Shown here: positions 3,311 to 35,919 of the stretch, piece after piece
Position numbering within the stretch: position 1 is the first letter of the stretch
Layout of the letters: each line of letters opens with the position of its first letter
Source of the DNA: a virus
DNA: 36,095 nt
IMG/VR virus record: IMGVR_UViG_3300045988_138052
Span: 1 to 36,095 of that record
Direction: 5' to 3' (one strand)
Notes under the pieces: model-generated
Told to the model about the DNA's origin: nothing
The model's database searches: none
The model's input: only the letters and a program-made list of their open reading frames with translations
Made by a program: the position numbers and the translations under genes

Positions 3311-3786
3311 TGTCAGCAAAGAAATTCAAGGTCGGTGATAAAGTCAAGATACGCAAGGGGCTTACTGATAGTAGCCTCTATAATCACGCTTACATAGAGA
3401 GAGGAGTGGAACTGTTTGGTGGTAAGACACTCACGATAAAAGAGGTGAGGGATGACTTTTACTTCGTTGAAGAGAACTGTTGGGCTTGGGATGACAAAGT
3501 ATTAGAGGCTGCTGGGGAACCCTTAGATAATTTTTGCGTTGGGGATGATATTTCTAGGGGCTCTGGCGTCAGAAGGATCCTAGCGGCAGTAGATGGTTGC
3601 TATCTATTGAGCAATACAGATGAATATACCGTCGCCAACGATTGGTACACGGCCGACGAGCTGAAACAAATTGGTTATCAAGTGTTACCGCCAGGGCATT
3701 CAATAACCCTCATCGAAATAGATGGCAAGAGGTACGATGAGGCTGAGGTTAAGAAAGCTATTAAAGACCTAGAGCCGATTGACTAA
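3310..3786 (+). CDS. Hypothetical protein (158 aa).
   Basis: Long ORF, AAGGAGGAG RBS, ATAATG coupling. Confidence 0.65.
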   Translation: MSAKKFKVGDKVKIRKGLTDSSLYNHAYIERGVELFGGKTLTIKEVRDDFYFVEENCWAWDDKVLEAAGEPLDNFCVGDDISRGSGVRRILAAVDGCYLLSNTDEYTVANDWYTADELKQIGYQVLPPGHSITLIEIDGKRYDEAEVKKAIKDLEPID

Positions 3787-3831
3787 GCAATGACCTACCA
3801 CATGTCAATAAACTGGGTGCACATTAGCATC

Positions 3832-3983
3832 ATACATACACACTAGGCCGCCCACAAGTGCCTTGAGCAAGCATTCTGAGGAAACTTGAGCGACGCGGTA
3901 TCAGCTGTATCCGTTTAGCAACAAAGCCACTGCGCTTACAGTGGAGCTGAGACGAGATTGTGGGCAGGCTTGTGTGTATGTAT
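3832..3983 (+). ncRNA. Candidate structured RNA of about 150 nt: a long closing helix around a roughly 100-nt branched interior. Class unknown.
   Basis: 12 perfect bp ATACATACACAC (3832-3843) / GTGTGTATGTAT (3972-3983), plus about 10 more bp (3848-3857 / 3958-3968). Inner hairpin CCACTG-CGCTTA-CAGTGG nested in TCAGCT/AGCTGA. No ORF. Confidence 0.45.
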
Positions 3984-3984
3984 A

Positions 3985-4000
3985 TCAACCGCATAACTGG
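3985..4000. repeat. 16-nt perfect inverted repeat, left copy (partner 4482-4497).
   Basis: TCAACCGCATAACTGG is the reverse complement of CCAGTTATGCGGTTGA at 4482-4497. The pair brackets the tRNA-like element and the AACTGG cluster. Confidence 0.85.
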
Positions 4001-4002
4001 GT

Positions 4003-4080
4003 AGATGATTATAGCTCAGCTGGTTAGAGCGTGGGACACATGAGCCTGAGGTCGGTGGTTCAATTCCACCCTATCGTCTA
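4003..4080 (+). tRNA. tRNA-like element, anticodon CAU (Met/Ile2-type body), non-canonical. May be a degenerate or embedded tRNA.
   Basis: Textbook D arm TAGCTCAGCTGGTTAGAGC and T arm GGTGG-TTCAATT-CCACC, with standard arm spacing and variable loop AGGTC. However, the anticodon stem is weak (2 GC, 2 GU, A.G), position 33 is A rather than U, and the canonical acceptor register gives only 5/7 pairs. Confidence 0.55.
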
Positions 4081-4083
4081 CTC

Positions 4084-4350
4084 AACTGGACAGATGATAT
4101 GCACAACTCCTTTCAGGTAGCGCGCCACCGGCGCGTCATCTAAAAATCGTGAAACGTTGTGAGTCGGCTCATATAACCGCAGTGCAGCGTGTATCGTCTG
4201 TTCAACTGGTAACACCAACGCACCTTTTATTTTCGGGAAATATATGTACTCAAAAAATCGAAAACAACTATCATTTGGTGTTACCAACTGGCAACATCAT
4301 CAAGAACAAATTAACCATATTAGTGCTTTACGAATGGTGTTGTCAACTGG
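4084..4350 (+). repeat. Cluster of YCAACTGG repeats with nested inverted repeats around an AT-rich core. Candidate iterons/origin or helices of a large structured RNA.
   Basis: AACTGG at 4084, 4204, 4286 and 4345, also at 3811 and 3995, and inverted at 4482. 11-nt IR GGTAACACCAA (4208-4218) / TTGGTGTTACC (4275-4285) flanks a 56-nt AT-rich stretch. 12-nt IR 4349-4360 / 4469-4480. Confidence 0.6.
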
Positions 4351-4481
4351 CTATATAAGCAGTGAACTAGCAGTCGCTAGTCCCTCATCGCAGTAAGTGT
4401 TTTTCTAATAGCACTAGCTGGTAACGGGCAGATGACAAGTTAAGCCCCGTGTGAGTTTATTCCTGGTTGCTTATATAGCCA

Positions 4482-4497
4482 CCAGTTATGCGGTTGA
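4482..4497. repeat. 16-nt perfect inverted repeat, right copy (partner 3985-4000).
   Basis: CCAGTTATGCGGTTGA, 29 nt upstream of the ATG at 4526. Confidence 0.85.
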
Positions 4498-4525
4498 ATT
4501 AAATAATGAATGGATGGTATGAACT

Positions 4526-5119
4526 ATGACGAATGACAACACAGTAGATGAGCGAACGCTAAAAATAGTTGAGCTCGCTAGAGCTGGTATAGGCGGCGAG
4601 AAAGAAGCCGCCCAGCGTATCCTACAAAGGATCTGCGCCAAGCAGGGGCTATCATACGAGGATCTTATCAACGATACCTCAGAAAAATGTAGCGAACACC
4701 TAATTGTAACGGGCAAACTAACCAAAAGCGAGCAAACAATAGCGGCACAGGTTATGTATAGATTTGCAACCAGTAAAGAGCACCCCGAGCTATGGACGTC
4801 GAGGAGTAGACACAACCGCGCCCTAAAAGGCTTTATAGCCGTATGTACCCCAGCCCAGGCAGCAGAAGCACAATACGCCGTAGATCTATTCCTGAGAGCC
4901 TATCGTGCAGAGTTAAAGCGAATACAGCGTGAAACTAATATTGCATTTGTAATAAAGCATAGACTGTTCGCACAGTACGAGACAGAGGGCGACAACAACG
5001 AAGAACTAACAGAGGAAAAACGTGCAGAACTAACCCGAGCCCAGCTAGCTAGCTACAATATGGCAGAAGTGCCTATGCATAAAGCAATAGAGCAAGGTAA
5101 TGCAAGACAGGATGAATGA
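4526..5119 (+). CDS. Hypothetical protein with a DUF2786-like N-terminus. The function call is weak.
   Basis: The N-terminal LKIVELARAGIGGEKEAAQRILQRICAKQGLSYEDL resembles the DUF2786 pattern (K...LLALA....EAE.A..KA..L). First gene after the non-coding island. Confidence 0.6.
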   Translation: MTNDNTVDERTLKIVELARAGIGGEKEAAQRILQRICAKQGLSYEDLINDTSEKCSEHLIVTGKLTKSEQTIAAQVMYRFATSKEHPELWTSRSRHNRALKGFIAVCTPAQAAEAQYAVDLFLRAYRAELKRIQRETNIAFVIKHRLFAQYETEGDNNEELTEEKRAELTRAQLASYNMAEVPMHKAIEQGNARQDE

Positions 5120-5186
5120 TTGGTAAACGACTAATATCAACTAAACCACTAATTTTGTGGACATAGATAAAGGAGATCAATTCATC

Positions 5187-5438
5187 ATGACACACAAAGA
5201 ATCCAAGTCAAGTGAATCGGCACAAAAGCCTAAGCTAGTATTTCCGTGGTCAACGCAAGATGGCTATTTTAACGGTGATATGTTTGAAGACTGGCTCAAT
5301 TCAAAGCTCGATCCTGACGATCCATACTTTAAGTTGCAGCGAATGATCAAAGCCAGAGAGACAGCCATTTATAGCCAGTTCGTAGATGAAGCTACCAGGA
5401 TATTAAAAAAATCAGTGCTGGATAGAGGGAGGGTCTAA
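5187..5438 (+). CDS. Hypothetical protein (83 aa).
   Basis: Internal ATG at 5187 with AAAGGAGA RBS. The track ORF starts at a GTG at 5157. Confidence 0.55.
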   Translation: MTHKESKSSESAQKPKLVFPWSTQDGYFNGDMFEDWLNSKLDPDDPYFKLQRMIKARETAIYSQFVDEATRILKKSVLDRGRV

Positions 5439-7783: not shown

Positions 7784-8083
7784 ATGTTGATAGATAAATA
7801 TCTTACGAATGTTAGAAAAGAAATAAACTTCAGCTATAAAGGATACGATGTATCAATGACTATCACTGTTAACGGAGGATCGTGCAAGGTGTTTAAGGAC
7901 GGCAAATTGCAGCGTGGAGATATTGTATTCTCCTATTTTGCTCCTCCGAAAGATCTCTTAGAGGCTACGGAACGAGGTGTGTATGCGGTATTAAATATTA
8001 TGAATACTATAGAAAATATTATCAGATATAATTATGATCCATCTCAATCGGCTAATCGACTGCCTGGAGAAAGATATGAGTAA
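7784..8083 (+). CDS. Hypothetical protein (99 aa).
   Basis: ORF with GAGGA RBS. Confidence 0.55.
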   Translation: MLIDKYLTNVRKEINFSYKGYDVSMTITVNGGSCKVFKDGKLQRGDIVFSYFAPPKDLLEATERGVYAVLNIMNTIENIIRYNYDPSQSANRLPGERYE

Positions 8084-8777
8084 AAATACCATAGTGGGCT
8101 TTCGCCCGTCAGGTAGATTGCATTTAGGACATTATGTCAGCGTGATAAAACCAGCGATAGAATACAAAGCAGACATCCTGATAGCTAAACACCACGCGCC
8201 ACTGTCAGAACCTGAATATGAGGAACAAGCGTTGAGTGTACTCAGAATGTTTAAGCTGAGTAGTCAAGTCGTCGAGCAGAGATTAGATGTCGCTTTACTA
8301 GCCAAGCTGTTAGCCGTAACACCTAGTCACTTACTGAATGCCATGCCACAGTATAAGGCTAAAGAAAAGACTGCGCTAATGTACGTATACCCAGTGATGA
8401 TGTCTCTAGATATTACAGGCTACGATAGAGTAATTGTTGGTGAAGACCAGCGTCCTCATATCGAATTTGCAAGAGACATCCTGCCGCGTGTTGGATTGAA
8501 GTGCCCAGACCCAATTTATACAGAAGCCAAGATCATGGACTTAAGGCATCCTGATCGTAAGATGAGTAAGTCTGAGCCAAAGTCGTGTTTATTCCTGGAT
8601 GATGAAGATTATGAGCGCAAGATCATGAAAGCAGTTACCGATGACAAAGGACTAGTAAATTTGAGAAACATCTATACGGAGTTGGGTGGTCGGTCTGATA
8701 TTGAAAACATGAGCAACTACGATCTAAAGCGAGCGATTGTAAAATTATATAAAACACTAGTGAATCGGCAAAGATAA
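8076..8777 (+). CDS. Truncated tryptophanyl-tRNA-synthetase-like class I aaRS (about 233 aa, against about 330 aa for bacterial TrpRS).
   Basis: GFRPSGRLHLGHY (HIGH region), YPVMMSLDI...VIVGEDQRPHIEFARDI (TrpRS core GEDQ.QH.E..RD), KMSKS at 8559-8573, and KIMKAVTD / NIYTEL as in TrpRS. Only about 67 aa follow KMSKS. Confidence 0.7.
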   Translation: MSKNTIVGFRPSGRLHLGHYVSVIKPAIEYKADILIAKHHAPLSEPEYEEQALSVLRMFKLSSQVVEQRLDVALLAKLLAVTPSHLLNAMPQYKAKEKTALMYVYPVMMSLDITGYDRVIVGEDQRPHIEFARDILPRVGLKCPDPIYTEAKIMDLRHPDRKMSKSEPKSCLFLDDEDYERKIMKAVTDDKGLVNLRNIYTELGGRSDIENMSNYDLKRAIVKLYKTLVNRQR

Positions 8778-8883: not shown

Positions 8884-9414
8884 ATGGCAAAAACAGCCGC
8901 TAAAGATAAACCTAAATCTTCTAAAGTGCCACCAAAGAAAACGCCCAAAAAGAACGGGCGTCCTTCAAAGTATACCGATAAACTAGCTGATAAAATTTGT
9001 CAAATGATTGCTCAAGGGCAATCGGTCCGTTCTATTTGTGCAAAAAAGGACATGATCTCTATGCAGACGTTTTTCCGCTGGCTGCGAGAAAATGATAAGT
9101 TTCGTGAGCAATACGCGCGTGCGTGTGAGGAGCGGTCGTATATGCACGCCGAAGACATCATTGAGATTGCCGACAACGCTAGTAATGACTATATGGAAAA
9201 GTTGGAAGGTGACGGCTATATATTCAACAGCGAAAACGTTCAGCGGTCACGTCTGCGGATTGATACGCGTAAATGGTTGATGTCTAAGCTAAACCCGAAA
9301 GTCTACGGCGACAAGCTAGATATGACGACAAACGGTAACGATATAGGAGTGACGCTAAGTGCAAGCCAAGCCGAGCAGCTGCTTAACGCAAGAGCAAATC
9401 GTCGGGATTCTTAG
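8884..9414 (+). CDS. terS: Terminase small subunit.
   Basis: GRPSKYTDKLADKIC...QSVRSIC (HTH) and RLRIDTRKWLMSKLNPKVYGDK, typical of this TerS family. Immediately upstream of TerL. Confidence 0.75.
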   Translation: MAKTAAKDKPKSSKVPPKKTPKKNGRPSKYTDKLADKICQMIAQGQSVRSICAKKDMISMQTFFRWLRENDKFREQYARACEERSYMHAEDIIEIADNASNDYMEKLEGDGYIFNSENVQRSRLRIDTRKWLMSKLNPKVYGDKLDMTTNGNDIGVTLSASQAEQLLNARANRRDS

Positions 9415-10864
9415 AGAATCTGCTGAAAATGGTTCTTTCGCCGAATACTGTATTGCTATTGATCCAGATTATCAGCTGAAATGGTTTCATGCTGAGATTG
9501 CAAACAAATTAGAGCAAGGGTTCTACAGGCTGATGGCAGGTGAAGATGTACGCCTGATAATCACTATGCCACCGCGTCACGGTAAGAGTGCTATGGCTAC
9601 GCAGAAATTTACGTCGTGGGTTTTGGGTAAAGTGCCAAATATGCCAATTGCAGTGACATCATACAATGCCGATTTGGCGACTGATTTTGGACAAAACACC
9701 AGGGATATTATGAAATCTAGTGCATACCGAGCAATGTTTCCAACACGCCTGCGTGCGGACGCCCGTGCGAAAGGTCGCTGGATTACCAAAGAGGGCGGTG
9801 CATACACGGCAGTTGGTGTTGGTGGTGCGCTGACAGGACGAGGTCTTAAAATTGGTATTATTGACGACCCATTCAAAAATGATGAAGAAGCAAACAGTCC
9901 TGTTATACGTGATGCCAGATACTCCTGGTATCGCTCAACATTTGCAACTCGTGAAGAGGGAAATTCCATGGTAGTGTTGATATTGACGCGTTGGCATGAG
10001 GACGATTTAGCAGGTAGGATATTAGCCGCCGCCGCTGACGCTAAAGCTAAGGGTGAGCCGCATGACGATTGGGAGGTGATTGAATTCAAGGCTATTGCCG
10101 AAAAAGATGACGAGCATCGCAAAAAAGGCGAAGCTCTATGGCCAGAGAAATTTTCAATTGAAAAACTGCGGAAAAAACAAACAGAGATAGGCAGTTATGC
10201 ATTTTCGTCACTTTACCAACAAAGCCCAATCAATGAGCAAAATCGTAAGTTCAAGAAGGCATGGTATAGATATCGTGAATTTAGCAATGTATTACAGCTT
10301 GATACCTACAACGTTATGACTATTGACCCGCGCGGTAAAGATGATATTGATCAAGGTACCGACTACATCGGTATAACCCTTAACTTTATCGACCGCGAAG
10401 GAAAGTGGAACGTGATATGTTACCGCACGAAGCTATCCGCGACTGACCTAGTAGACCTCATGTTTACCAACTGGAAGCGGTACAATCTACACAAGATTGG
10501 TATCGAGGATAACCAGTTTACTCAAGCTCTGAAGTCTGTTTGGGAAGAGGAGATGTTACGTAGAGGTGTCTATATGGATGTCGAGCTACTGAAACATGGC
10601 GGACACAGTAAGGCGCTGAGAATTGAAGCTCTAGTTCCACGATACGAACGTGGCGGCATCTATCACATTAAACACGGTGATACGAATTTCTGTAAAGACC
10701 TAGAAGGTGAACTCAGTATGTTTCCTAAAGCCACCAACGATGACGCAAGCGATTCATTAGCATATCAAGTACAGCTAGCTCAACGCCCAGAGGACGATGT
10801 CGGTAGCGGCGAGGTATACAATCAATCACTTACAGATAGAGACATAACAGCAACATGGAATTAA
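9359..10864 (+). CDS. terL: Terminase large subunit.
   Basis: Walker A-like PPRHGKS, Walker B-like IGIIDDP, a C-terminal nuclease half and synteny with the portal. GTG start with AGGAG 9 nt upstream, overlapping terS. Confidence 0.85.
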   Translation: MQAKPSSCLTQEQIVGILRESAENGSFAEYCIAIDPDYQLKWFHAEIANKLEQGFYRLMAGEDVRLIITMPPRHGKSAMATQKFTSWVLGKVPNMPIAVTSYNADLATDFGQNTRDIMKSSAYRAMFPTRLRADARAKGRWITKEGGAYTAVGVGGALTGRGLKIGIIDDPFKNDEEANSPVIRDARYSWYRSTFATREEGNSMVVLILTRWHEDDLAGRILAAAADAKAKGEPHDDWEVIEFKAIAEKDDEHRKKGEALWPEKFSIEKLRKKQTEIGSYAFSSLYQQSPINEQNRKFKKAWYRYREFSNVLQLDTYNVMTIDPRGKDDIDQGTDYIGITLNFIDREGKWNVICYRTKLSATDLVDLMFTNWKRYNLHKIGIEDNQFTQALKSVWEEEMLRRGVYMDVELLKHGGHSKALRIEALVPRYERGGIYHIKHGDTNFCKDLEGELSMFPKATNDDASDSLAYQVQLAQRPEDDVGSGEVYNQSLTDRDITATWN

Positions 10865-14834: not shown

Positions 14835-15758
14835 ATGGCACTAATTACAACCGTCAGTATGGACAAAGAGTTAATGAAGTTTTTGGACTCTGAGTTCTTG
14901 GATCGCAGTGAAGCATTGCTTATTCACGGCGAAGGTGCGAAAAAATCACATTTGAAGCAAAATCACGGTAAAACATACACCTTTACCAAACGAGATCCGA
15001 AGCAAGTAGCCACCACGCCACTTACCGAGGGTGAAAACCCAGCAGAGTCAGGCAAGTCCAGCGGACAGGTCACTGCTGAGTTGAAAACGTATGGTGACTG
15101 GGAGAAAATCAGCTCGCTATTTAAAGAGACCTCAATCGATAAGGGGCAGCAAGAAACTATTGAAGTGTTGGCGCAGCAGGCTGCAGAAACCATCGATGCA
15201 CTCATTCGCAATGCTCTGCACGCTGGTGCAACAACCATGTTTGCTAACGGTAAAGCGGCGCTGTCTAATCTAACCAACGATGACGTCTTGACGCTAAAAG
15301 AGGTTAAGAAGGCAAAGCGTGACCTGAAAAAGCGCAACGCTAAGACCTATGGCGATGGCTACTACATCGGCAAAATTGGTCCAGATACCGCCTACAACTT
15401 GATGAATGACGGTGCATGGATCGAGGCGCAGAAGTATACTGGCCGCAAAGAGCTATACAAGGGTGAAATCGGTACAATTGCTGGTGTTCGCTTCCTGGAA
15501 TGCTCAAGCAACCAGAAAACCGAGCAGGCTGGTTCAGTAACCGTGTACTCAAACTTCATCCACGGTCAGCAAGCGTTCGGTACGATTGCCTTGGAGGGCA
15601 TCAATGAGACGAAGCTCATCATTAAAAACCCAGACAAGCATGACACCAGCAACGCCTTGAACATGTTCTCAACCGCTGGTTGGAAGGCCGAGGCGTTTGC
15701 GGCCGCAGTGCTTGATCCAAAGTGGATCATTAACATTAAGACAGGTGCTAAAGACTAG
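14835..15758 (+). CDS. Major capsid protein (probably HK97-fold).
   Basis: 307 aa. Called from its position after the scaffold gene and its composition. No motif-level proof. Confidence 0.7.
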   Translation: MALITTVSMDKELMKFLDSEFLDRSEALLIHGEGAKKSHLKQNHGKTYTFTKRDPKQVATTPLTEGENPAESGKSSGQVTAELKTYGDWEKISSLFKETSIDKGQQETIEVLAQQAAETIDALIRNALHAGATTMFANGKAALSNLTNDDVLTLKEVKKAKRDLKKRNAKTYGDGYYIGKIGPDTAYNLMNDGAWIEAQKYTGRKELYKGEIGTIAGVRFLECSSNQKTEQAGSVTVYSNFIHGQQAFGTIALEGINETKLIIKNPDKHDTSNALNMFSTAGWKAEAFAAAVLDPKWIINIKTGAKD

Positions 15759-19481: not shown

Positions 19482-22400
19482 ATGGACTTTTTTCAGAGAT
19501 TAGGTAACTTTTTTGGAGGAAAAGGTTGGGTTAATGATGAGGAGAAACGGCGTAAAGAGCAACAGGCTCAGCCACAACCAATACGGCAGCCGCAACCTCA
19601 ACAGGTCCAACAGCCTCAGTTAAATGGACAGTCGACATTACAAGTACGACCAAATATACCGTGGGCCAATCAAAATAGTGGGCTCAACCAGTCTCAACCA
19701 AAAGTCAATCTTAATCCCCTTGAACAAGCCAATCAGGCAAATCAACAATTAAATCAAAACAACCAACCAAAGCCGCAAGTTACAACAAATGACGCTCCTA
19801 AAATGCTTACCCCAGAAGGTCAACAAGACTGGGTTAATAAACAAAACCAGCAGATTCAGATACAGAACGCAGTCAAGCAGCCAATCCAGCAGCAGCCTCA
19901 GCCTATTCAACAGCCAAAACCGCAACCAGTACAACCTCAACAGGTCCAACAACCAAAGCCTGAACTACAATCAACAGTAGCCAGTCCATATCGTAGTTCA
20001 GTGCTTAACTCTCAAGGGGATAGTATAGCCCGTGCTTTAGACGCAGTAAATAAGAATATTGCTCAATATAAGACAGAGCAAGCGACTCGTAATGACGCCA
20101 TTGATAATAAATTGCGTGCCCGCGGTGTTTCTGAGCCTGAAATCCTTAATAAACGTCAAGAGCGTATTCGTTTAGAGAATGAGGCGCATGTTGCTGCAAA
20201 TGAAGCTCGCCAGTCACAAAACATGGCAAACATGCTAAAGCCTGTAGCTGCAATAGCTCAGCCGATCGATAGCGCAAGGCGTGCTGTAGTTAAAGGAATG
20301 GATAACGTCAATAAATGGATTGATTCATATGATGATAAGGCGGGATTTCAAGTCGATAGCCCAGGTGATTATGTAAGGTTTGCGGGTAAATTAGTGCCTG
20401 GAATGATTCAGGGAGCTGCGGAAGGGCCGGAAAAGCTTGCGTCCGCTGTTGTTGGTAAGCGCATGACGGAGGATGGTAGAGTAGAAAACCTCAATGGCAT
20501 GCAGCGGCTTGGTAGTGCTGCTGATGGTGCCATTGACCTATTTGGTGTACCATTCGGTGCATCAGGCCAGCTAGTTAAGTCCGCATTGAAGCAAGGCGGT
20601 AAAGAAGTCGCCAAAGAGGCAGTAGATCAAGCTGTACGTAAGAGAATATTAGGCGCAGCGAAGAACATTGCCACCGGTGCTATTAAAGAGGGTGCTGAAG
20701 AAACAGTTCAATCTCTTGCTGGCGACCTAGCAGATGATGGCAAAATTAATACTGACTGGAAGCAGCACGCACAGGCTGGTGCTCTAGGTGCACTGGGCGG
20801 TGCTATGATGGGTGCTGGTGGTAAAGCAATCAGCACATTACGAAACCGATCAGCAAGCGTCCAACCCAATCAATCTTTAGAAGTACCAAGTACTACTATA
20901 GGTAAAGTACAAGCAGTGGAGCAGGTCCAGCCAACAGCGACCAACACTACACAGCCTGCTGGTTACTCAACCTTCTACCGTAGGCCAGTAAACACAGCAT
21001 CGCTACGCCAAGCAGCAGAGGTTAACACAGTCAATACACGAAATAATCAGGCTCACCCAATCCAGTCAATCAACGTTAATCAGACAGTAGAGACTGCCAT
21101 ACCAAACGCCAGTCCTGCTCTCAAGCAGGCTGTTAGTCAGAATATGTCAGACATTCAACGCGGTGATGTCAAAGCCGTAGCATCCCGTCAGCAGACCACT
21201 GGCAAACTAGAAAGCTATCTTGTCGAGCAGGCTACCCAGGGTGTACAAAACCGAGTTGCACAGGATGTGAGGTATAAGATGATACAGAATGGGACAAATC
21301 TATATCACGGCTCACCGCATAAATTTAATAAATTCTCTACTGATAATATTGGCTCTGGTGAGGGCAACCAGTCCTTTGGGTGGGGTCTATATTTTACTGA
21401 TAATAAAGGTATTGGCGAGCACTATGCAGATATTGGCAACAACAATAATCGTGCGCGTATAAAAAATGACTTAATCTCTGGGGAATTCAGGGATAGTCTG
21501 TATGTAAATAAAGACACTATGTCCGATGAGCTTCAGCGTTTCTTATCTAAAAACGGGTACAATATTACAGCCAATATGAACCCAGATGAATTAGCCCAAC
21601 AGGTTGATTCATTGCGACAGCAGAGTCAGTATTATGGCAAAAAGGCAGACGAGATGGCCGGAACTGGTTTCGATAGTGATTTTATAGCAGCATCCGAAAA
21701 GTACAACAATCTTGCTAGCGAACTAGAACAGATTGTGCGCAATAGCTCAGAAAAGAGACGTCTTGCCGAGGAAGAGATCAATCAAAGAGTTAATGATGTT
21801 GGTAATAGCAGAAACTTGTATAACGTGGATCTTGCTAGTAGTGATGGTCGTGACTTTGATTTCTTAAGTTGGTATGACACTGTTGATCCTGAGCAAAAAC
21901 ATAAGATAAAACAACAAGCTCTTGCTGAGAACTTAACCGACAAATGGGGAACTAGCGTAAGAGATACCGAGAGTTACCCTAATTCAATCCCATTCGACAC
22001 TGATGAGTCTGGTGCGTCCATATATCACAAATTACAAAGTGAGTGGGGTATGACACCAAAAGAAACCTCTATGTTCTTAAGCCGTGCCGGTATCGACGGA
22101 ATTATTTATCCGGCAGATTCTCTATTTAATGCTAATAATCGAGACCTTGGTAGGGCAGAGAGTACCAACTATGTGGTGTTTGATGAGAATAACGTAAAAG
22201 TACGAGATTACGTAAGGTATAAGCGTCAGGCAGATGCTCAAATGCAGGAGCTAACTAGCCAAAGTAGCCTCCTAGCACGCCACCTACAACTAACAGGTGA
22301 TGAGCGCCTTGTATTCAATGAGTGGCAAAATGAAATGCAAAGAAAAGCACTCGGCTATTACGATCCAAATACCGACAAAATAAACCTGAACAAGCTGTCT

Positions 22401-25400
22401 GAAGACACTCTAAACCATGAATTGGGACACAAGCTCTTGGAGCGTGCAGACAATAAGCAGGAGCTTCTAGACACTATCCGCGAGTCTTATGGTGATGACT
22501 ATCTCATTAGTAAGTACAGCAAAGAATATGGGGATGGTGACATTAACCTGCTAGCCGAGGAACAACTAGCTGACGGATTCAGTGATTACTATAACGGAAT
22601 ACTGAACGGTGAAAATAAAGTACGTCTAGGTGCTAGATTAGGTGTTCCTCAGAAGGTCCTAGCAGTATATGACCGGATTACTGAAGCTATTATGGGACTT
22701 GTCGGCAAGCAAGACGCTATTAAGCAATTCTATGCTCAAATGGAGACCGGGAAATTTAAGAACGCCAAACAGCAAACACCTGGCGGCGATGGACGGGTGA
22801 GGACGATGAGTATTGATCCTGAAAGAGCACTCCATGCAATTAAAGGTATTGATGACCTAGCAAATAGTCGCCGTGCACTATTCACACTAGTACGTGTATC
22901 TGATAACTTGGCAAACAGGATAAAAACAGAGACTGGCATATCAATAAGTAAGGATGCACGTATCGTCATGGATAGGAGCGGCGCTGTTCATATGCTATCT
23001 ACTCATGGGCAAGGCGGTAAAAAACCAGCCAATCCGTTGACCGACGCTGACTTGGGCAGGCTGCCATACGTTTTGGAAGATCCAGATGTGATTATTAAAG
23101 GTAAACCAGTACGAAACACGGAGCGCATTCGTATGGAGCGTAACCTTGAAGGTAATAAAATTGCTATTGTCGAAGTAATTAAAAAAGGCAACGAACTACG
23201 AGTCGTCACCTACTTTAATGATTCGTCATCTGGCCGCACCAATCCTGCATATAATATGTCGAGGCTTGATGATACGTCCGAAACGGGGCAATTACAGTCC
23301 ACGAATCTTAACGATAGTGTAGCAAACAACACCCAAAATGTCAATACAAATAATCGTTACCAGCACCCTCTTCAAGAAACTATTAATGACATCCAAGATA
23401 ATCCAAAGCCAAAGATGACCAAGGAGTTGCGTCAAGCTATTGATGCACGAATAGCAGAGACCAACCCAGAGTTGTTTGCGGATCAAGAAACTAATATCAT
23501 GGGTGGTGACACAAATTGGAATATACCACGCATCCATGTTGATGATCTAAAACACTACCTAGGAAACCTAATAGAAGACATACCAGTTGCCTACAGGCGT
23601 CGTACAGGCAAGCGTGATATTGACACTATTGCTCAGGAAATGGGCTATGACGAGATCGATGGCTTTGTTCAAGAGCTACAGCGTGCTGCCGAATCACGCC
23701 GTCGAGTACGTGAAAATAAGCAAATGCTTGCCGAATTACGAAAAGATCCAGAAACTATTGCTTTAGCCCAGCAGGATGTTGAACAGGCAACACAGGAGCG
23801 TGTTCGTGTAGCTAAAGAGACAAAAGAAAATGCATGGAATGAGCTCAAGGATATCATAGAATATCGCAAAGCGGCTATGATGGATGGCAACAATCAAGAT
23901 GTAGCAGACGCAAATCGGGAAATCACTAGGATTGCCCGCCAGGCAGGACTTAAGCGGCAAGAGCTACAGCAATTTATTAGAAAGCACAGCGCTAATGTGA
24001 TACCTAATACGAATACCGCGCCTCAATCAGCAGAATCTGGTGCATTCACTAATGTGCCGATGGAAGACGGACATCTGTTGACCAAAGGTAATTTATATGA
24101 ACAGACCAAGTCTGGAATACTAGATAATTGGACGAAACCGTTTAGGGACGGAGATTATGAATACCGCGTTCATACAAAACGTGGTCGTGGCGGTAAAAAG
24201 AGCTTTACTAACTTTGAGCGGCGTTATGTTGGGGATAATGGAGAACCTGGTGACTGGACACCGACCTCACGAGCGGCTTATATCTGGAAGAGTCAGACAA
24301 ACAGTATTAATAAGGTAGGCAGAAACGAGGCAATCCTGAAAGCCCTAGAAGCAGCTAAACAGGATGGCGAGGTCCAGGAATTCATGGCTTACAAAAACCC
24401 CGATAGTGCTGGTGGAGTCGCTGTCGTTCCTTTAGTAGGTGAACATTCAATCGATGGTGGTTTTGTGCGTAACCCAAGGACTGGTGAAATTGAAGGTAAC
24501 TACATCCAGGTAACACCATTTGGAGTGGTTCATCAAGTTAATGGCAAATTTGATGTGGTAGAGGCTGATCATCTGACAAACTCATTAGATAAAAGTAAGG
24601 GCGGTATCACGGATACCTTTAACCGCCTTGTTGAGAAGAATATTCAGGATAAGGTGGGCCAAAAACTGCTTAAAGACCTTTACTACCAAAAAACTGAAGC
24701 ATACGCTAACTATGCTGATGAAATCGAGAACCTGCTAGGTAAACATGCTGCACTAGCTAAGCATATCGATAAAGCACGTCCGCGCTTTGCAAAGAGCAAA
24801 AAGTTCTGGGAAGATGTTGGTTTGTATACTGAGGGTAAGTTCCCTGTAGGTAGTGCTGATGAAAATATGAACGCTGCATTTGCAAAGAAGTATGGTAGCC
24901 GAGCAGCTGAGCGCGTCAAAGAGTATAACACATTCATGCGTAATAATTATGACGCCTTAATTTCAAACCTCAACTCGATTAGGCGTATGTATGGCAAGGA
25001 AGAAATCCCATACCTCAAGAACTACATGCCACATATTCAAAAGCGAAGCAATATCTTAGGCAGAGCCGTGGATAAGCTGTTGGCTGCCGTTCCAACAGGC
25101 GTGAGAGGGGATATGGAAGGTCAAGCCCGTGGTGAAATACCAGCCTCAATTGCTGGTTTATCTGCAGATTTTAAACCAACTCATAAGTTCAATGCTAATG
25201 AGAAGCGTCGATTTGGCGGTATGGTGAGCTATGAAAAAGATCCGCGTAAGGCTTTTGAATATTATGCAGATGTTATGCTATATAACACTCATATGGAACC
25301 GGTCATTGCTCGCGGTAGGCAAATAGAGTCATCTATGCGTGCAATCGATATGGCTAAAAAGAGCGGTACTAACATCGACCCAGACAGTAATCTAGCTAAA

Positions 25401-31828: not shown

Positions 31829-32074
31829 ATGAAACTAGAAAAGAAAACTACAAGGCAGCTGTCTATCGCGGTTGGTTTGCTGTCATTCGGCGCGTTCGTT
31901 GTGCAGGGTCTGGGCGATATCTGGGGCTTCCAGGCAATCGCCAAACAACTCACCGCAACTGCCCTATTAGTCGCAGGTGCTGTGAACGTACACTTCTCAG
32001 GTGTTACCAGCGAGAAGAACAGGCAAGACAAAAAGATGGCTCGAGAAATCCAAGCTAAAGAGGTGGAGAAATGA
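31829..32074 (+). CDS. Two-TM holin-like small membrane protein (81 aa).
   Basis: ATG at 31829 with AAGGAGG 5 nt upstream. TM segments LSIAVGLLSFGAFVVQGL and ATALLVAGAVNVHF, with a charged C-terminus. Immediately upstream of the endolysin. Confidence 0.55.
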   Translation: MKLEKKTTRQLSIAVGLLSFGAFVVQGLGDIWGFQAIAKQLTATALLVAGAVNVHFSGVTSEKNRQDKKMAREIQAKEVEK

Positions 32075-33195
32075 AAAAAGTAATTTCAAATCTGAAAAAC
32101 TTCATCATCAATCGGGTAGATGTGTTGATAGTTGCAGGCGTTATCATCATATCATCTATATTTTTAATTATAGGTAAGCCCTCAGAGGACGGCAGTATCA
32201 CCCTTGACGGCTCAAAAGCCAAGTACTCTAAAACAACCGAAAAAGCCTTGTGTGAGCTAGCCAAAAAGCGTGAGACGGCAATCGCTGGCATTATGGGCCT
32301 AGACGTACCACAAGATAAAGGATCAGGTTGCGACCCTGTGGACAAAGAATTGGCTCAAATGGGGTCAGGTGTCTATTACAAGACCGACCTGTCCAGTCCT
32401 GCTGCTTTTGTAAACGCCATGAATGGCCGCGGATTTAATGAGGGCTACGGCTTACAGTGTGTGGCAGGCTTCAAGCAGTTCATGTTCAGCTTGAGTGGAC
32501 GTGTCGTGGCTACCCGTACGGGTGGAGCGAGTGGATACGCAAACCAAGTCGGCGAAATCCAAGCACTCGGCTTTACCTGGCACGCTGGGCAAGCTGGTAT
32601 GAAAGATGGCGACTGGGCAATCTTTGGCGGTGGAACGTATGGACATGTGGCTATGTATTATCAGGGCAAGTTCTTCGGTCAAAACCAAGGCTCAGGCAAT
32701 ATCTATGTCGGTAACGCCTTTAACTTGATGGACTTAGGTGGCTATCGCAATTCAATCATCGGTTACTATCGCCCGAATATCTGGGCAAATGGTAGCACTG
32801 CTAGCGCGCCAGCAGCTCCAGCAGCCAGCTCAAAAGCAGTGAATGACCAAGTGGTGGCAGATGTCTTGCGTGGTGTGTACGGTAGTGGCAACGACCGCGT
32901 AGCACGGTTGCAAGCCGCCGGCTACAATCCAGCCGAGGTTCAATCAGCTGTCAATTCACGTGTAGCAGCACAAGCACCGCGAATCAGCGCGCCAGCTTCG
33001 ACAGGCTACGTTCAGCGAAGCACTGGCGGTTACGTTGTGCGTCGCGGGGACACGCTCGGCGACATCGCACTGCGTAACGGCTGGCACGGCACCAACGGGC
33101 TATTCGGTAACTCTGGCTATACACAGCGGCTGGCTGAGCGAAATGGGATTGCTAATCGCGGACTGATTTATCCAGGGCAAAGGATCAATCCATGA
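32071..33195 (+). CDS. Endolysin: N-terminal membrane anchor, then CHAP amidase/peptidase, a CW_7 (Cpl-7-type) repeat and LysM.
   Basis: TM segment VLIVAGVIIISSIFLIIG. CHAP Cys/His context GLQCVAGFKQF...YGHVAMYY. CW_7-like VADVLRGVYGSGNDRVARLQAAGYNPAEVQSAVN. LysM YVVRRGDTLGDIA...GLIYPGQRI. Confidence 0.8.
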   Translation: MKKVISNLKNFIINRVDVLIVAGVIIISSIFLIIGKPSEDGSITLDGSKAKYSKTTEKALCELAKKRETAIAGIMGLDVPQDKGSGCDPVDKELAQMGSGVYYKTDLSSPAAFVNAMNGRGFNEGYGLQCVAGFKQFMFSLSGRVVATRTGGASGYANQVGEIQALGFTWHAGQAGMKDGDWAIFGGGTYGHVAMYYQGKFFGQNQGSGNIYVGNAFNLMDLGGYRNSIIGYYRPNIWANGSTASAPAAPAASSKAVNDQVVADVLRGVYGSGNDRVARLQAAGYNPAEVQSAVNSRVAAQAPRISAPASTGYVQRSTGGYVVRRGDTLGDIALRNGWHGTNGLFGNSGYTQRLAERNGIANRGLIYPGQRINP

Positions 33196-34951: not shown

Positions 34952-35001
34952 TTTCTACGTAGGTAAAATAAAGTATTGATCACTACTGGAGTTTGGAGTT
35001 T

Positions 35002-35919
35002 ATGAACGCAACAATGACGGCTACCCAAGCGGCAGCTTTATTTTTTACTAAACCAAAAACAATTGACAGTGCAAGGAGTATCACTATTGCGAGACTAGCT
35101 GATAACTACATACGGCACTGTACATACGTTGACACTATGTCACCAACCACCATATCAACGAGGCGAACACATTTGAAACAATTCATCGAATTTTGCAGAA
35201 GTAACAATAAACTATATGCCGAGGATCTCACTATCAACTGGCTTGACTTTTATTTCTATGAATTTGCTAAGACCCACGCACCGTCAACTACAAATACCAC
35301 TAAACGTATCTTAAAATCATTCTTCCGCTACATAACAGATAGAGCCGAAATAACTACCGTCAATCCTGACATCATCAAATCACACAAGAATATGAAGCCT
35401 CGACCGCATTACATCAACCACGACACTATCGATTATGTCATTCAGAGAACTACTGATCCACACACTAAAATGCTCATAGATTTCATGTATGAAACAGGCC
35501 TCAGAATCACTGAAGCCTGTCAGATCACTTACCGGGATATTGATGACCTGCGGGTATATGTGCTGGGTAAAGGAAACAAAGAACGCACCGTCTATCTCAC
35601 ACCTGAAGTACGACAACGCCTTGACGATTATATCGATGAATGGGGCCGTCAGAGCGGCACACTATTCAGAGCTAACACCAAGACTGCACGGCTGTGGATC
35701 CAGCGAGCGTTTAAGAAGTATGCTGGCATTCATATCACACCACATCAGCTACGCCATAGCTACGCAGCAAGGCTACTGCTCAACGGCTGTGACATAGCTT
35801 CAATCCAAAAGCTGCTTGGCCATTCAGACATCTCAACCACCATGATTTACCTACAGCTCAAAGATGAGGCCGTAGAGAATCAGTACTATAAAGCCAGGAA
35901 TAACGCTCAAGGATATTGA
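35002..35919 (+). CDS. int: Tyrosine recombinase / phage integrase.
   Basis: ETGLRITEA (Arg I), HQLRHSYAARLL (H-x-x-R) and LLGHSDISTTMIYL (His and the catalytic Tyr). ATG at 35002; the track start TTG at 34993 is also possible. Confidence 0.9.
   Translation: MNATMTATQAAALFFTKPKTIDSARSITIARLADNYIRHCTYVDTMSPTTISTRRTHLKQFIEFCRSNNKLYAEDLTINWLDFYFYEFAKTHAPSTTNTTKRILKSFFRYITDRAEITTVNPDIIKSHKNMKPRPHYINHDTIDYVIQRTTDPHTKMLIDFMYETGLRITEACQITYRDIDDLRVYVLGKGNKERTVYLTPEVRQRLDDYIDEWGRQSGTLFRANTKTARLWIQRAFKKYAGIHITPHQLRHSYAARLLLNGCDIASIQKLLGHSDISTTMIYLQLKDEAVENQYYKARNNAQGY

What the first reader, a model, noticed from the sequence alone, without database searches (positions are those of the whole stretch)
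3985..4497. A 513-nt ORF-free island closed by a perfect 16-bp inverted repeat, with seven AACTGG motifs and nested long-range helices: large structured RNA or iteron origin
- **Closing repeat:** TCAACCGCATAACTGG (3985-4000) is the exact reverse complement of 4482-4497.
- **Motif enrichment:** AACTGG occurs six times in direct orientation (3811, 3995, 4084, 4204, 4286, 4345), mostly as YCAACTGG, and once inverted (4482). About 0.3 occurrences would be expected by chance in about 700 nt.
- **Nested inverted repeats:** GGTAACACCAA/TTGGTGTTACC (4208-18/4275-85) surround a 56-nt AT-rich stretch. GGCTATATAAGC/GCTTATATAGCC lie at 4349-60/4469-80. Small hairpins lie at 4120-4136 and 4367-4382.
- **Competing pairings:** the single CCAGTT at 4482 can pair with several AACTGG copies, so alternative structures are possible.
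- **Context:** a tRNA-like element sits at the 5' edge, and together with 3787-3984 the non-coding tract is about 740 nt.
- **Reading (a):** a large ornate ncRNA of the kind seen in phages next to or containing tRNAs, such as the GOLLD and ROOL classes.
- **Reading (b):** a DNA-level origin, with iterons, an AT-rich unwinding element and an adjacent gene (4526) as a possible initiator.
Basis: partly seen in the sequence, partly recalled or inferred. Interest (0 to 1): 0.72.

Follow-up and report, generated by a model that had tools for sequence, protein, structure and literature searches.

The report
Modular structured-RNA cassette array in phage
The 513-nt "island" is a transcribed RNA element of a phage of Saccharibacteria: one conserved long-range helix encloses a string of interchangeable hairpin-closed RNA modules, one of them a tRNA-Met. 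It matches no described RNA family and is not a replication origin.

Summary
Six + strand AACTGG copies in 540 nt has P about 1.5e-8.

AACTGG is not an iteron. It is the seam YCA-AC-UGG: the end of one helix, a 2-nt linker, and the start of the next. P1 (3985-4000/4482-4497) encloses five arms, each closed by an 11-15 bp stem.

I recovered 142 distinct P1-framed arrays of 139-862 nt, from IMG/VR phage contigs plus this window. Five more lie in Candidatus Saccharibacteria genome bins. P1 and an ordered set of closing stems are conserved. The arm interiors differ even between phages whose neighbouring gene is at least 96% identical.

Pairing is strand-specific:
- **Closing stems:** 265 G·U against 14 A·C.
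- **Variable stem positions:** 93% paired, against 45% with permuted partners.
- **P1 position 10:** U-A in 46 arrays and G-C in 32, a compensatory switch.

Rfam finds only tRNA, so there is no GOLLD or ROOL match. The origin reading fails on every test I could run.

The element is most likely a modular RNA holder or precursor, framed by a leader-trailer helix. Its function is unknown.

The parts
3787..3831 (+). Conserved leader (..GACCTACCAYAYGTCRAWAAACTGGGYG..). It holds the first AACTGG copy (3811).
   Evidence: The same leader precedes most arrays in relatives. A variant leader reads AAACTGCTY at this point, so this copy is not a helix seam.
3832..3983 (+). Upstream 'slot 0' cassette: a 152-nt element closed by a 26-bp stem (3832-3857/3958-3983). 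It is inserted into the leader just before P1.
   Evidence: I1 (26 nt, 88% complementary). The fold has z = -3.1. It is present in L002/L067, L059, L080 and L090. It is absent in most relatives, where GAACATTAACAAT abuts P1 directly.
3985..4000 (+). P1, 5' strand (TCAACCGCATAACTGG)
   Evidence: It pairs perfectly with 4482-4497. It is conserved in 142 arrays, with a compensatory U-A/G-C switch at position 10.
3998..4084 (+). Arm 1: tRNA-Met (CAT), 4004-4079, sitting on an extended stem (4001-4009/4073-4081). UGG 3998-4000 can alternatively pair with UCA 4082-4084.
   Evidence: ARAGORN. Rfam tRNA at 35.4 bits, with two non-standard pairs in the acceptor stem. No CCA is encoded.
4082..4089 (+). 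Seam 1: UCA-AC-UGG
4087..4204 (+). Arm 2: a 118-nt non-tRNA module. Its closing stem (4087-4100/4191-4204) is a paralogue of the tRNA arm's stem.
   Evidence: D2 and D5 (87-89% identity to the tRNA arm's flanks). There are 37 distinct homologues. RNAalifold predicts 31 pairs, 8 with compensatory changes.
4202..4209 (+). Seam 2: UCA-AC-UGG
4207..4286 (+). Arm 3: a 12-bp stem (4207-4218/4275-4286) around a 56-nt AT-rich interior
   Evidence: I7. The interior is replaced by unrelated sequences of about 30-190 nt in relatives that keep the same stem class.
4284..4291 (+). Seam 3: CCA-AC-UGG
4289..4345 (+). Arm 4: a 57-nt hairpin (stem 4289-4300/4334-4345, with one U·G).
   Evidence: There are 18 distinct homologues.
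4343..4350 (+). Seam 4: UCA-AC-UGG
4348..4481 (+). Arm 5: a 134-nt branched module closed by a 15-bp stem (4348-4362/4467-4481). It abuts P1 with no linker.
   Evidence: I4. This is the most widespread slot, and it has at least two unrelated interior types.
4482..4497 (+). P1, 3' strand (CCAGTTATGCGGTTGA). It ends 28 nt before the ATG of ORF 4526-5119.

Best explanation
The region is one transcribed, + strand, non-coding RNA locus. It is built as a frame that holds independent structured-RNA modules.

**Anatomy.**
- The frame is a conserved leader-trailer helix (P1, 16 bp) plus an ordered series of conserved closing stems of 11-12 bp.
- The stems are joined end to end by the seam YCA-AC-UGG. 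The seam is the last 3 bp of one stem, a 2-nt linker and the first 3 bp of the next. This is why AACTGG recurs.
- The closing stems are paralogues of the extended acceptor stem that carries the tRNA-Met. The modules therefore look tRNA-derived, and in this window one of them still is a tRNA.

**Proposed mechanism (inferred, not shown).**
1. The array is read through with the flanking early genes.
2. P1, stacked coaxially on arm 1 or arm 5, acts like the leader-trailer stalk of rRNA/tRNA operons. It brings the ends together and is cut by an RNase III-type enzyme, which releases the array from the mRNA.
3. The arms then act as separate modules, each protected from exonucleases by its long closing stem. 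They may stay tethered or be cut apart at the AC linkers. Where an arm is a true tRNA, RNase P/Z-type trimming would finish it.

The conserved 22-24-nt blocks that span each seam also provide homology for recombination. That would explain why related phages swap module interiors while keeping the frame.

**What the payloads do is unknown.** Rapid turnover between near-identical phages suggests accessory, conflict-related RNAs such as tRNA supplements, mimics or decoys.
For: **Shown.**
- The minimum-energy fold of the + strand is P1 plus five arms: -182.3 kcal/mol, z = -6.6, against z = -4.9 for the - strand.
- The same architecture is predicted for a relative with other modules, and for a 139-nt minimal array with z = -9.0.
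- 142 distinct arrays share P1 and the seam.
- In 140 distinct arms, the first 11 stem pairs are WC 1223, G·U 265, A·C 14, other 38.
- The four variable stem positions are 93.2% paired, against 45.1 ± 3.5% with permuted partners. None of 2000 permutations reached the observed value.
- Conserved wobbles lie at stem pair 3 (G·U in 129 of 140) and pair 9 (U·G in 89, C-G in 43).
- P1 was sampled through a search key outside P1: WC 1225, G·U 44, A·C 8, other 3. Position 10 is U-A in 46 and G-C in 32, with 2 broken.
- Arm 2 has internal compensatory changes.
- Arrays point the same way as flanking ORFs in 81 of 86. I judged the other 5 to be arrays I had mis-oriented, from their reversed arm-5 signature.
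- No + strand sigma-70-type promoter or terminator lies beside the array.
- Eight phages whose downstream gene is at least 96% identical carry eight different module sets.
- P1 is retained almost unchanged (one C-to-U giving U·G at most) where the upstream protein is only 44-53% identical.
- Some arrays hold real tRNAs. In three, the CCA of a tRNA-Tyr is the CCA of P1's CCAGUU.
- One locus type adds an outer helix beyond P1 and is followed by two canonical tRNAs.
Against: - There is no transcript or cleavage data of any kind.
- P1 is 16 bp (17-19 in many relatives), which is short for a classical RNase III site unless coaxial stacking counts.
- The 2-nt linkers and the 6-7 bp extension below the tRNA acceptor stem are poor substrates for RNase E, P or Z. 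This favours an uncut multi-arm RNA.
- P1 and the seam are conserved in sequence, not only in pairing. Something sequence-specific reads them, and I have not identified it.
- Only 4 of 86 arrays hold a tRNA that ARAGORN calls, so tRNA supply cannot be the general purpose.
- G·U asymmetry would also be seen for strand-specific single-stranded DNA hairpins.
Confidence: 0.55

Rival explanations
1. One intact large RNA. P1 and the short AC linkers lock the arms into a compact multi-way junction. This works as a single ornate RNA, possibly oligomeric like the GOLLD and ROOL nanocages, with tRNA or tRNA-like arms displayed on it and never released.
For: - Linkers are invariably 2 nt and the helices are flush.
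- The frame keeps its order while the interiors vary.
- Most arrays lack any canonical tRNA that would need release.
- There is precedent: GOLLD is encoded in phages near tRNAs and sometimes carries tRNAs in its variable linker region (PMC12286853).
Against: - Arm number ranges from one to about seven. Some arrays are just P1 plus one arm, so no fixed junction or tertiary core is conserved.
- No arm is universal.
- There is no match to any large-RNA model in Rfam.
- Embedded tRNA-Tyr genes with an encoded CCA look made to be released.
Confidence: 0.22
2. A DNA-level cassette platform or mobile element. P1 would be a pair of terminal inverted repeats, and the seams would be recombination sites for a recombinase, so that modules are inserted and excised as DNA as in an integron. 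Any RNA structure would be secondary.
For: - P1 and the seams are conserved in sequence, not just in pairing.
- The element is present or absent at the same site in relatives. One empty site (L019) keeps a single copy of a TGAAC that flanks the filled sites.
- Some contigs carry two arrays.
- Some seams fit the attC core pattern RYYYAAC by eye (sequence only).
- A tyrosine integrase is encoded in the window at 34993-35919.
Against: - No recombinase or transposase is linked to the arrays. The 30 commonest flanking-gene clusters show nothing of the kind, by inspection of their sequences.
- The integrase lies 30 kb away and is an ordinary phage integrase.
- The conserved block extends upstream of the left repeat, so the repeats are not terminal.
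- The modules hold no ORFs.
- Internal module helices covary, and real tRNAs occupy slots, which demands an RNA product.
- The TGAAC observation rests on one locus.
Confidence: 0.08
3. One reading: a replication origin. AACTGG would be iterons, 4219-4274 the unwinding element, and ORF 4526-5119 the initiator.
For: A short motif is repeated in direct orientation, an AT-rich stretch is present, and the region is non-coding with an adjacent gene of unknown function.
Against: - The conserved core is 8 nt. Spacings of 89, 120, 82 and 59 nt are not helically phased.
- Every copy coincides with a helix seam of a strand-specific fold carrying G·U pairs.
- Copy number varies from 1 to 7 between close relatives, and the AT-rich loop is replaced in them.
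- The ORF is absent beside the array in L015-L017, L020-L022, L025 and L027. It has no family or structure match.
- The element is absent from five related loci.
- Cumulative GC skew is monotonic.
Confidence: 0.03
4. A decaying tRNA gene cluster. One live tRNA-Met would be followed by eroded tRNA pseudogenes with no function of their own.
For: - The closing stems are paralogues of the tRNA arm's stem (D2 and D5).
- Several slot-1 modules score as weak tRNAs at 35-42 bits.
Against: - Pseudogenes would not keep 93-97% pairing with compensatory changes.
- They would not keep P1 and the seams almost unchanged across phages whose proteins are about 45-50% identical.
- Many interiors are much larger than a tRNA and have their own conserved helices.
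Confidence: 0.05

Closest known systems
GOLLD and ROOL large ornate RNAs of phages and prophages
   Same: All are phage- or prophage-encoded, hundreds of nucleotides long and richly base-paired. All are found beside tRNAs or containing them. GOLLD has a variable region that can hold tRNAs (PMC12286853). Function is unknown in every case.
   Different: Neither Rfam model matches, even at E ≤ 10. GOLLD and ROOL have a fixed conserved core. Here only a closing helix and short stem/seam blocks are conserved, and the arms are exchangeable and vary in number.
Leader-trailer (processing-stalk) helices of bacterial rRNA/tRNA operons
   Same: A long-range helix forms between sequences that flank the mature RNAs and encloses them. 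The leader-trailer helix of rRNA operons is the subject of PMC10250234, which I saw only as a title and abstract. RNase III cleavage of such stalks is textbook knowledge.
   Different: P1 is only 16-19 bp and nearly invariant in sequence. It encloses a variable set of small modules rather than an rRNA. Cleavage is untested.
Phage tRNA clusters that also encode small stable RNAs (phage T4 tRNA region with species 1 and 2 RNAs; from my own knowledge, not tested here)
   Same: tRNAs and non-tRNA structured RNAs are co-transcribed in one precursor in an early or middle region of a phage genome.
   Different: To my knowledge those clusters have no enclosing helix and no repeated seam motif. They have no paralogous closing stems and no modular turnover.
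tRNA
   Same: Arm 1 passes the Rfam tRNA threshold and ARAGORN. The closing stems of the other arms are paralogues of its extended acceptor stem.
   Different: The other four arms do not match the tRNA model. A look-alike arm-5 variant in a relative does not either. The tRNA-Met has two non-standard acceptor pairs, no encoded CCA, and 6-7 extra base pairs below the acceptor stem.
Integron cassette arrays
   Same: Both are an ordered string of exchangeable units separated by short conserved sites that lie at the base of hairpins. Content differs between close relatives.
   Different: The units here are non-coding hairpins, not ORFs with attC sites. There is no linked IntI-type integrase, attI or Pc. 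The evidence points to RNA-level selection.

Membership tests
tRNA (Rfam tRNA model) | Cloverleaf covariance-model score at or above the gathering score | tested here: met
   4005-4078 scores 35.4 bits against a gathering score of 29. ARAGORN calls tRNA-Met (CAT) at 4004-4079. This applies to arm 1 only; no other arm matches at E ≤ 10.
tRNA (Rfam tRNA model) | Regular 7-bp acceptor stem with single-stranded flanks and a 3' CCA, either encoded or added | tested here: inconclusive
   The alignment marks two non-standard acceptor pairs. No CCA is encoded, and the stem continues for 6-7 bp below position 1. Whether the tRNA is matured and charged cannot be told from sequence.
GOLLD RNA | Match to the conserved GOLLD covariance model (conserved 3' domain) | tested here: not met
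   cmscan against all 4227 Rfam families found nothing but tRNA. I ran it at gathering scores on the window and on 34 related loci, and at E ≤ 10 on 3600-4700.
GOLLD RNA | Phage or prophage location next to tRNAs, or containing them | tested here: met
   The genome is a temperate phage. A tRNA lies inside the element.
ROOL RNA | Match to the ROOL covariance model | tested here: not met
   Same searches as for GOLLD.
Iteron-type replication origin | Iterons: direct repeats of about 17-22 bp, several copies, regularly spaced | tested here: not met
   The conserved core is 8 nt. Spacings are 89, 120, 82 and 59 nt. Copy number ranges from 1 to 7 in close relatives.
Iteron-type replication origin | A cognate initiator gene consistently adjacent | tested here: not met
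   ORF 4526-5119 has no Pfam, PHROG, NCBIfam or PDB match. It is not next to the array in L015-L017, L020-L022, L025 or L027.
Iteron-type replication origin | A conserved AT-rich unwinding element, and presence in all related genomes | tested here: not met
   The AT-rich stretch is the interior of arm 3 and is swapped for unrelated sequence in relatives. The element is absent downstream of the homologous gene in L018, L019, L023, L024 and L026. GC skew shows no inflection.
Iteron-type replication origin | Replication initiates there | not testable with these tools
   This needs marker-frequency or 2D-gel mapping.
Leader-trailer processing stalk (rRNA/tRNA-operon type) | A long-range helix between the sequences that flank the mature RNAs, kept by covariation | tested here: met
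   In 80 arrays found through a key outside P1, P1 pairs are WC 1225, G·U 44, A·C 8 and other 3. Position 10 is U-A in 46 and G-C in 32.
Leader-trailer processing stalk (rRNA/tRNA-operon type) | Cleavage of the helix by RNase III | not testable with these tools
   This needs in-vitro cleavage or mapping of RNA ends.
Integron cassette array | A linked IntI integrase with attI and Pc, and cassettes made of an ORF plus attC | tested here: not met
   The 30 commonest flanking-gene clusters show no recombinase, by inspection of their sequences. The only integrase lies 30 kb away and is of the ordinary phage type. The modules contain no conserved ORF.

The most novel reading that the evidence does not exclude
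A natural 'RNA cassette platform'. The frame would be a conserved leader-trailer helix plus tRNA-acceptor-derived slot stems joined by a fixed UCA-AC-UGG seam. Phages of Saccharibacteria would swap dozens of unrelated structured-RNA payloads into it. This would be an RNA counterpart of an integron or anti-defence island. Its payloads (tRNAs, tRNA mimics, decoys) would serve the phage-host conflict over tRNAs and translation. The same genome also carries a BECR-fold RNase in a polyvalent protein and a truncated TrpRS-like enzyme.
Probability: 0.3. Interest if true: 0.85.

Novelty: new variant of a known kind. Interest (0 to 1): 0.68.

Why it matters
Phage-encoded large RNAs next to tRNAs, such as GOLLD and ROOL, are abundant and structurally spectacular, yet they have no known function. 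This locus is a third, unrelated solution in phages of an ultra-small episymbiont lineage (Saccharibacteria/TM7).

It also comes with an unusual natural experiment. There are 142 variants in which a fixed frame carries different payloads. That separates what the frame needs (P1, the seam, two conserved wobble pairs) from what the payloads do. It supplies ready-made covariation data for dozens of new structured RNA modules. It may also show how phages package, stabilise and exchange small RNAs.

If the frame is a processing or stabilising scaffold, it is a natural analogue of the engineered tRNA scaffolds and tRNA-spaced arrays used to express RNAs.

Tried and rejected
- **GenBank phages.** A nucleotide search found no relative of the window. 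Only the tRNA part hits Bacillus phage tRNA-Met genes.
- **Rfam.** Searches at gathering scores and at E ≤ 10 found only tRNA. The snoRNA and miRNA hits are chance.
- **tRNA-Leu resemblance, withdrawn.** By eye, an arm-5 variant in relatives (GTGGCGGAATAGGTAGACGC, plus a T-arm-like hairpin) looked tRNA-Leu-like. The tRNA model does not match it at E ≤ 10.
- **Promoters and terminators.** The sigma-70 scan found nothing convincing on the + strand. Reading the conserved leader by eye as a promoter gives wrong hexamer spacing.
- **Antisense targets.** Array sequences have no significant match in the rest of the window.
- **A protein partner.** Clustering ORFs within 5 kb of 86 arrays gave only ordinary early genes, by my reading of the sequences (for example YopX-, DUF1064- and SSB-like, and a methylase-like ORF). 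Nothing RNA-specific appeared. The TrpRS-like gene lies near arrays in only four fetched loci from three contigs.
- **ORF 4526-5119 as an initiator.** It has no family or structure match.
- **Literature.** I found no description of this architecture. A catalogue of about 10,000 candidate structured RNAs from IMG/VR (PMC10690425) may contain individual modules, but I could not check this.
- **Other families.** I considered CRISPR, retron and ToxI-type repeats and rejected them on anatomy. The repeat core is 8 nt, there is no RT or Cas gene, and the units are unrelated to one another.
- **Terminal inverted repeats with a target duplication.** This rests on one suggestive empty site (L019, TGAAC). 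The conserved block extends beyond the left repeat.
Full report

Yes. TCAACCGCATAACTGG (3985-4000) is the perfect reverse complement of 4482-4497.

AACTGG occurs on the + strand at 3811, 3995, 4084, 4204, 4286 and 4345, and inverted at 4482. From the rate in the rest of the window, 0.15 copies are expected in 540 nt of one strand, so P(≥6) = 1.5e-8.

The inner inverted repeats and the two small hairpins are present. A tRNA-Met (CAT) lies at 4004-4079, inside the closing repeat. Only short mechanical ORFs of 50-69 aa overlap the region.

**2. Anatomy in the window**

The minimum-energy fold of the + strand (-182.3 kcal/mol; z = -6.6; - strand z = -4.9) is a closing helix P1 that encloses five arms:

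| Arm | Span | Closing stem | Content |
|---|---|---|---|
| 1 | 3998-4084 | 4001-4009/4073-4081 | tRNA-Met |
| 2 | 4087-4204 | 14 bp | 118-nt non-tRNA module |
| 3 | 4207-4286 | 12 bp | AT-rich interior |
| 5 | 4348-4481 | 15 bp | branched; abuts P1 with no linker |

The key point is that AACTGG is not a free-standing motif. Each copy is the seam YCA-AC-UGG: the last three pairs of one stem, a 2-nt linker, and the first three pairs of the next stem.

The stem that closes arm 2 (ACAGATGATA/TATCGTCTGT) is a paralogue of the extended stem that carries the tRNA (D2 and D5).

Upstream, a conserved leader (3787-3831) holds the first AACTGG. A further 152-nt hairpin-closed element (3832-3983) is inserted between the leader and P1 (I1).

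**3. Relatives show a frame with exchangeable contents**

The window has no near relative among GenBank phages. IMG/VR holds many.

- Homologues of the two flanking genes brought in 28 loci.
- An independent scan keyed on the arm-2 seam brought in 95.

In all I recovered 142 distinct arrays of 139-862 nt, counting this window.

What is conserved:
- the leader;
- P1;
- an ordered series of closing-stem classes: RYAGAYRAT, ACAGATGAT, TAGCAC, CRACATCA, CTATATAAG;
- the seam.

What is not conserved is the interior of the arms, or their number, which ranges from one to about seven.

Eight phages whose downstream gene is 96-100% identical carry eight different module sets. Conversely, P1 is retained almost unchanged (one C-to-U giving U·G at most) where the upstream protein is only 44-53% identical. 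Some interiors occur behind more than one stem class.

Minimum-energy folds of a relative with other modules, and of a 139-nt minimal array, reproduce the P1-plus-arms design.

**4. RNA or DNA?**

*Closing stems.* A logo of 161 internal seams shows that all closing stems are paralogous 11-12 bp helices. Their pattern is U-A, G-C, G·U, N-N, N-N, R-Y, S-S, A-U, Y-G, N-N, A-U.

In 140 distinct arms, the first 11 pairs are WC 1223, G·U 265, A·C 14 and other 38. G·U on the + strand would be A·C on the - strand, so the pairing is strand-specific. It sits on the strand of the tRNAs and of the genes.

At the four variable positions, 93.2% of cells pair, against 45.1 ± 3.5% when 3' strands are dealt to other arms. 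None of 2000 permutations reached the observed value.

*P1.* To avoid circularity, I tested P1 on the 80 arrays found through the arm-2 seam. Pairs are WC 1225, G·U 44, A·C 8 and other 3. Position 10 is U-A in 46 arrays and G-C in 32, with 2 broken.

*Arm 2.* This family has 37 distinct sequences. It shows 8 pairs with compensatory changes, including an inner hairpin that switches G-C/A-U and C-G/U-A.

These results argue for selection on an RNA. Formally, a single-stranded nucleic acid of + polarity would give the same pattern.

**5. Context**

- **Phage type.** The window is a temperate tailed phage. It encodes a small terminase (8884-9414), a large terminase (9359-10864), a capsid protein (14835-15758), a lysin (32071-33195) and a tyrosine integrase (34993-35919). 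All long ORFs lie on the + strand.
- **Host.** In the genome collection, arrays occur only in five Candidatus Saccharibacteria genome-bin contigs of 25-148 kb. All other hits are single chance 16-mers. The host is therefore most likely Saccharibacteria (TM7). This rests on metagenomic binning.
- **Orientation.** Arrays point the same way as flanking ORFs in 81 of 86 cases. I judged the other 5 to be arrays I had mis-oriented, from their reversed arm-5 signature.
- **Transcription signals.** No + strand sigma-70 promoter or terminator lies beside the window's array.
- **Dispensability.** The element is accessory. Five loci with the homologous upstream gene lack it. Some contigs carry two arrays.
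- **Flanking genes.** They are ordinary early genes. No conserved partner emerged.

**6.

(a) 'Large structured RNA containing a tRNA' is right in kind. The element is not GOLLD, ROOL or any other Rfam family. Its variable arm number also argues against one fixed ornate fold.

(b) The origin reading fails each test I could run:
- the repeat core is 8 nt and unphased;
- every copy is an RNA helix seam;
- copy number and the AT-rich stretch are not conserved;
- the neighbouring ORF is not a constant neighbour and resembles nothing known;
- the element is dispensable;
- GC skew is monotonic.

**7. How it most likely works**

*Shown:* a conserved frame holds independently folding, exchangeable RNA modules on the transcribed strand.

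*Inferred:*
1. The array is read through with the early genes.
2. P1 stacks directly on arm 1 (3985-4009 is one continuous strand) or on arm 5 (4467-4497 likewise). It acts like the leader-trailer stalk of rRNA/tRNA operons and is cut by an RNase III-type enzyme.
3. The modules, each capped by a long stem, then persist as stable RNAs, either tethered or cut at the AC linkers.

Real tRNAs in some slots support release. The clearest case is a tRNA-Tyr whose CCA is the CCA of P1's CCAGUU.

Three things argue against routine cutting: the 2-nt linkers, the 6-7 bp extension below the tRNA acceptor stem, and the fact that only 4 of 86 arrays hold an ARAGORN-grade tRNA. So an uncut multi-arm RNA remains a serious rival.

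The near-invariance of P1 and the seam in sequence, together with the two conserved wobble pairs, implies a sequence-specific reader. I could not identify it.

The 22-24-nt conserved blocks across each seam offer homology for the recombination that shuffles the interiors.

What the payloads do is unknown. Their turnover resembles that of accessory, conflict-related loci. The same genome encodes a BECR-fold RNase domain (PBECR3) in a 2701-aa polyvalent protein and a truncated TrpRS-like enzyme. That link is speculation.

**8. Comparison with known systems**

- The element works most like a cross between a phage tRNA/small-RNA cluster and a leader-trailer-framed operon.
- It shares ecology with GOLLD and ROOL: phage-borne, tRNA-associated, large and of unknown function (PMC12286853).
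- It is a member of none of these. Arm 1 alone qualifies as a tRNA.
- The resemblance to integron cassette arrays is organisational only.

I found no description of this architecture in the held literature.

**9. Verdict**

This is a real, strongly supported structured-RNA locus of a new design. I rate it a new variant of a known kind. There is a fair chance (about 0.3) that it represents a distinct principle, namely a scaffold for swapping RNA payloads.

Interest: 0.68.

Noticed in passing
window 8034-8777 (+): A 247-aa truncated class I aminoacyl-tRNA synthetase paralogue of the Trp/Tyr type. It matches Pfam tRNA-synt_1b at E = 9e-27 and the TIGR trpS model at 96 bits, far below that model's cut-off of 177. 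HLGH and KMSKS motifs are visible, but it is too short to hold an anticodon-binding domain. In L025 its homologue lies a few hundred bases downstream of the array.
   Followed up: partly
window 19482-27587 (+): A 2701-aa 'polyvalent' protein. It carries a PBECR3 domain (Barnase-EndoU-ColicinE5/D-RelE-like RNase, E = 2e-11) and an ART-PolyVal ADP-ribosyltransferase domain (E = 5e-7). Together with the tRNA-like array, this suggests the phage invests heavily in RNA/tRNA conflict.
   Followed up: no
window 34993-35919 (+); loci L147, L154, L193, L194, L255: A tyrosine integrase (Phage_integrase, E = 7.5e-32) marks the phage as temperate. Arrays of the same kind lie in five Candidatus Saccharibacteria genome-bin contigs of 25-148 kb, so the host is probably Saccharibacteria (TM7).
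   Followed up: partly
window 5130-5190; also just downstream of arrays in L015, L019, L021, L023, L026: A conserved intergenic block, CAACTAAACCACTAATTTTGTGGACATAGAKAAAGGAG, sits directly before a start codon. In L015 and L021 it follows P1 directly because ORF 4526-5119 is missing. It is a candidate promoter or operator plus ribosome-binding site.
   Followed up: no
L019 3490-3520 compared with filled sites such as L017: In an 'empty' site the leader's AAACTGG is joined to TTGAACCCGTAG. Filled sites have TGAAC on both sides of the leader-P1-array-P1 block. This could be a microhomology deletion or a target-duplication-like footprint. It rests on a single case.
   Followed up: partly
L094 (3828-4136 and 8980-9216); L047 (two arrays): Some contigs carry two P1-framed arrays at separate loci. 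L094 comes from a 74-kb contig and L047 from a 34-kb contig.
   Followed up: partly
L131 12228-12379 and 12480-12860 (- strand); likewise L046, L142: A second locus type. The P1 array is nested inside a further outer inverted repeat (..AATCAGAGCAAAACGA.. / ..TCGTTTTGCYYTGATT..). It is followed about 140 nt later by two canonical CCA-encoding tRNAs (63 and 69 bits; Asn-GTT and Met-CAT by my reading of the sequence). Those tRNAs lack the AACTGG seam.
   Followed up: partly
L016 4200-4370, L017 3620-3740, and upstream of P1 in L049, L068, L084, L098, L100: Another recurrent 'slot 0' cassette of about 150-190 nt, closed by TTCAAGTGCAGAATGC.../...GCATTCTGCACTTGAA. Its interior is conserved (..CCGTTGCAACGGCGCCGCAAGAGCGCAAAGAGGGAAAACCCGAG..). 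It has no Rfam match.
   Followed up: no
window 8884-9414 and 9359-10864 (+): The ORFs for the small terminase (Sf6-like, E = 3e-42) and the large terminase overlap by 56 nt as listed. The true start of the large subunit is probably downstream of the listed GTG.
   Followed up: no
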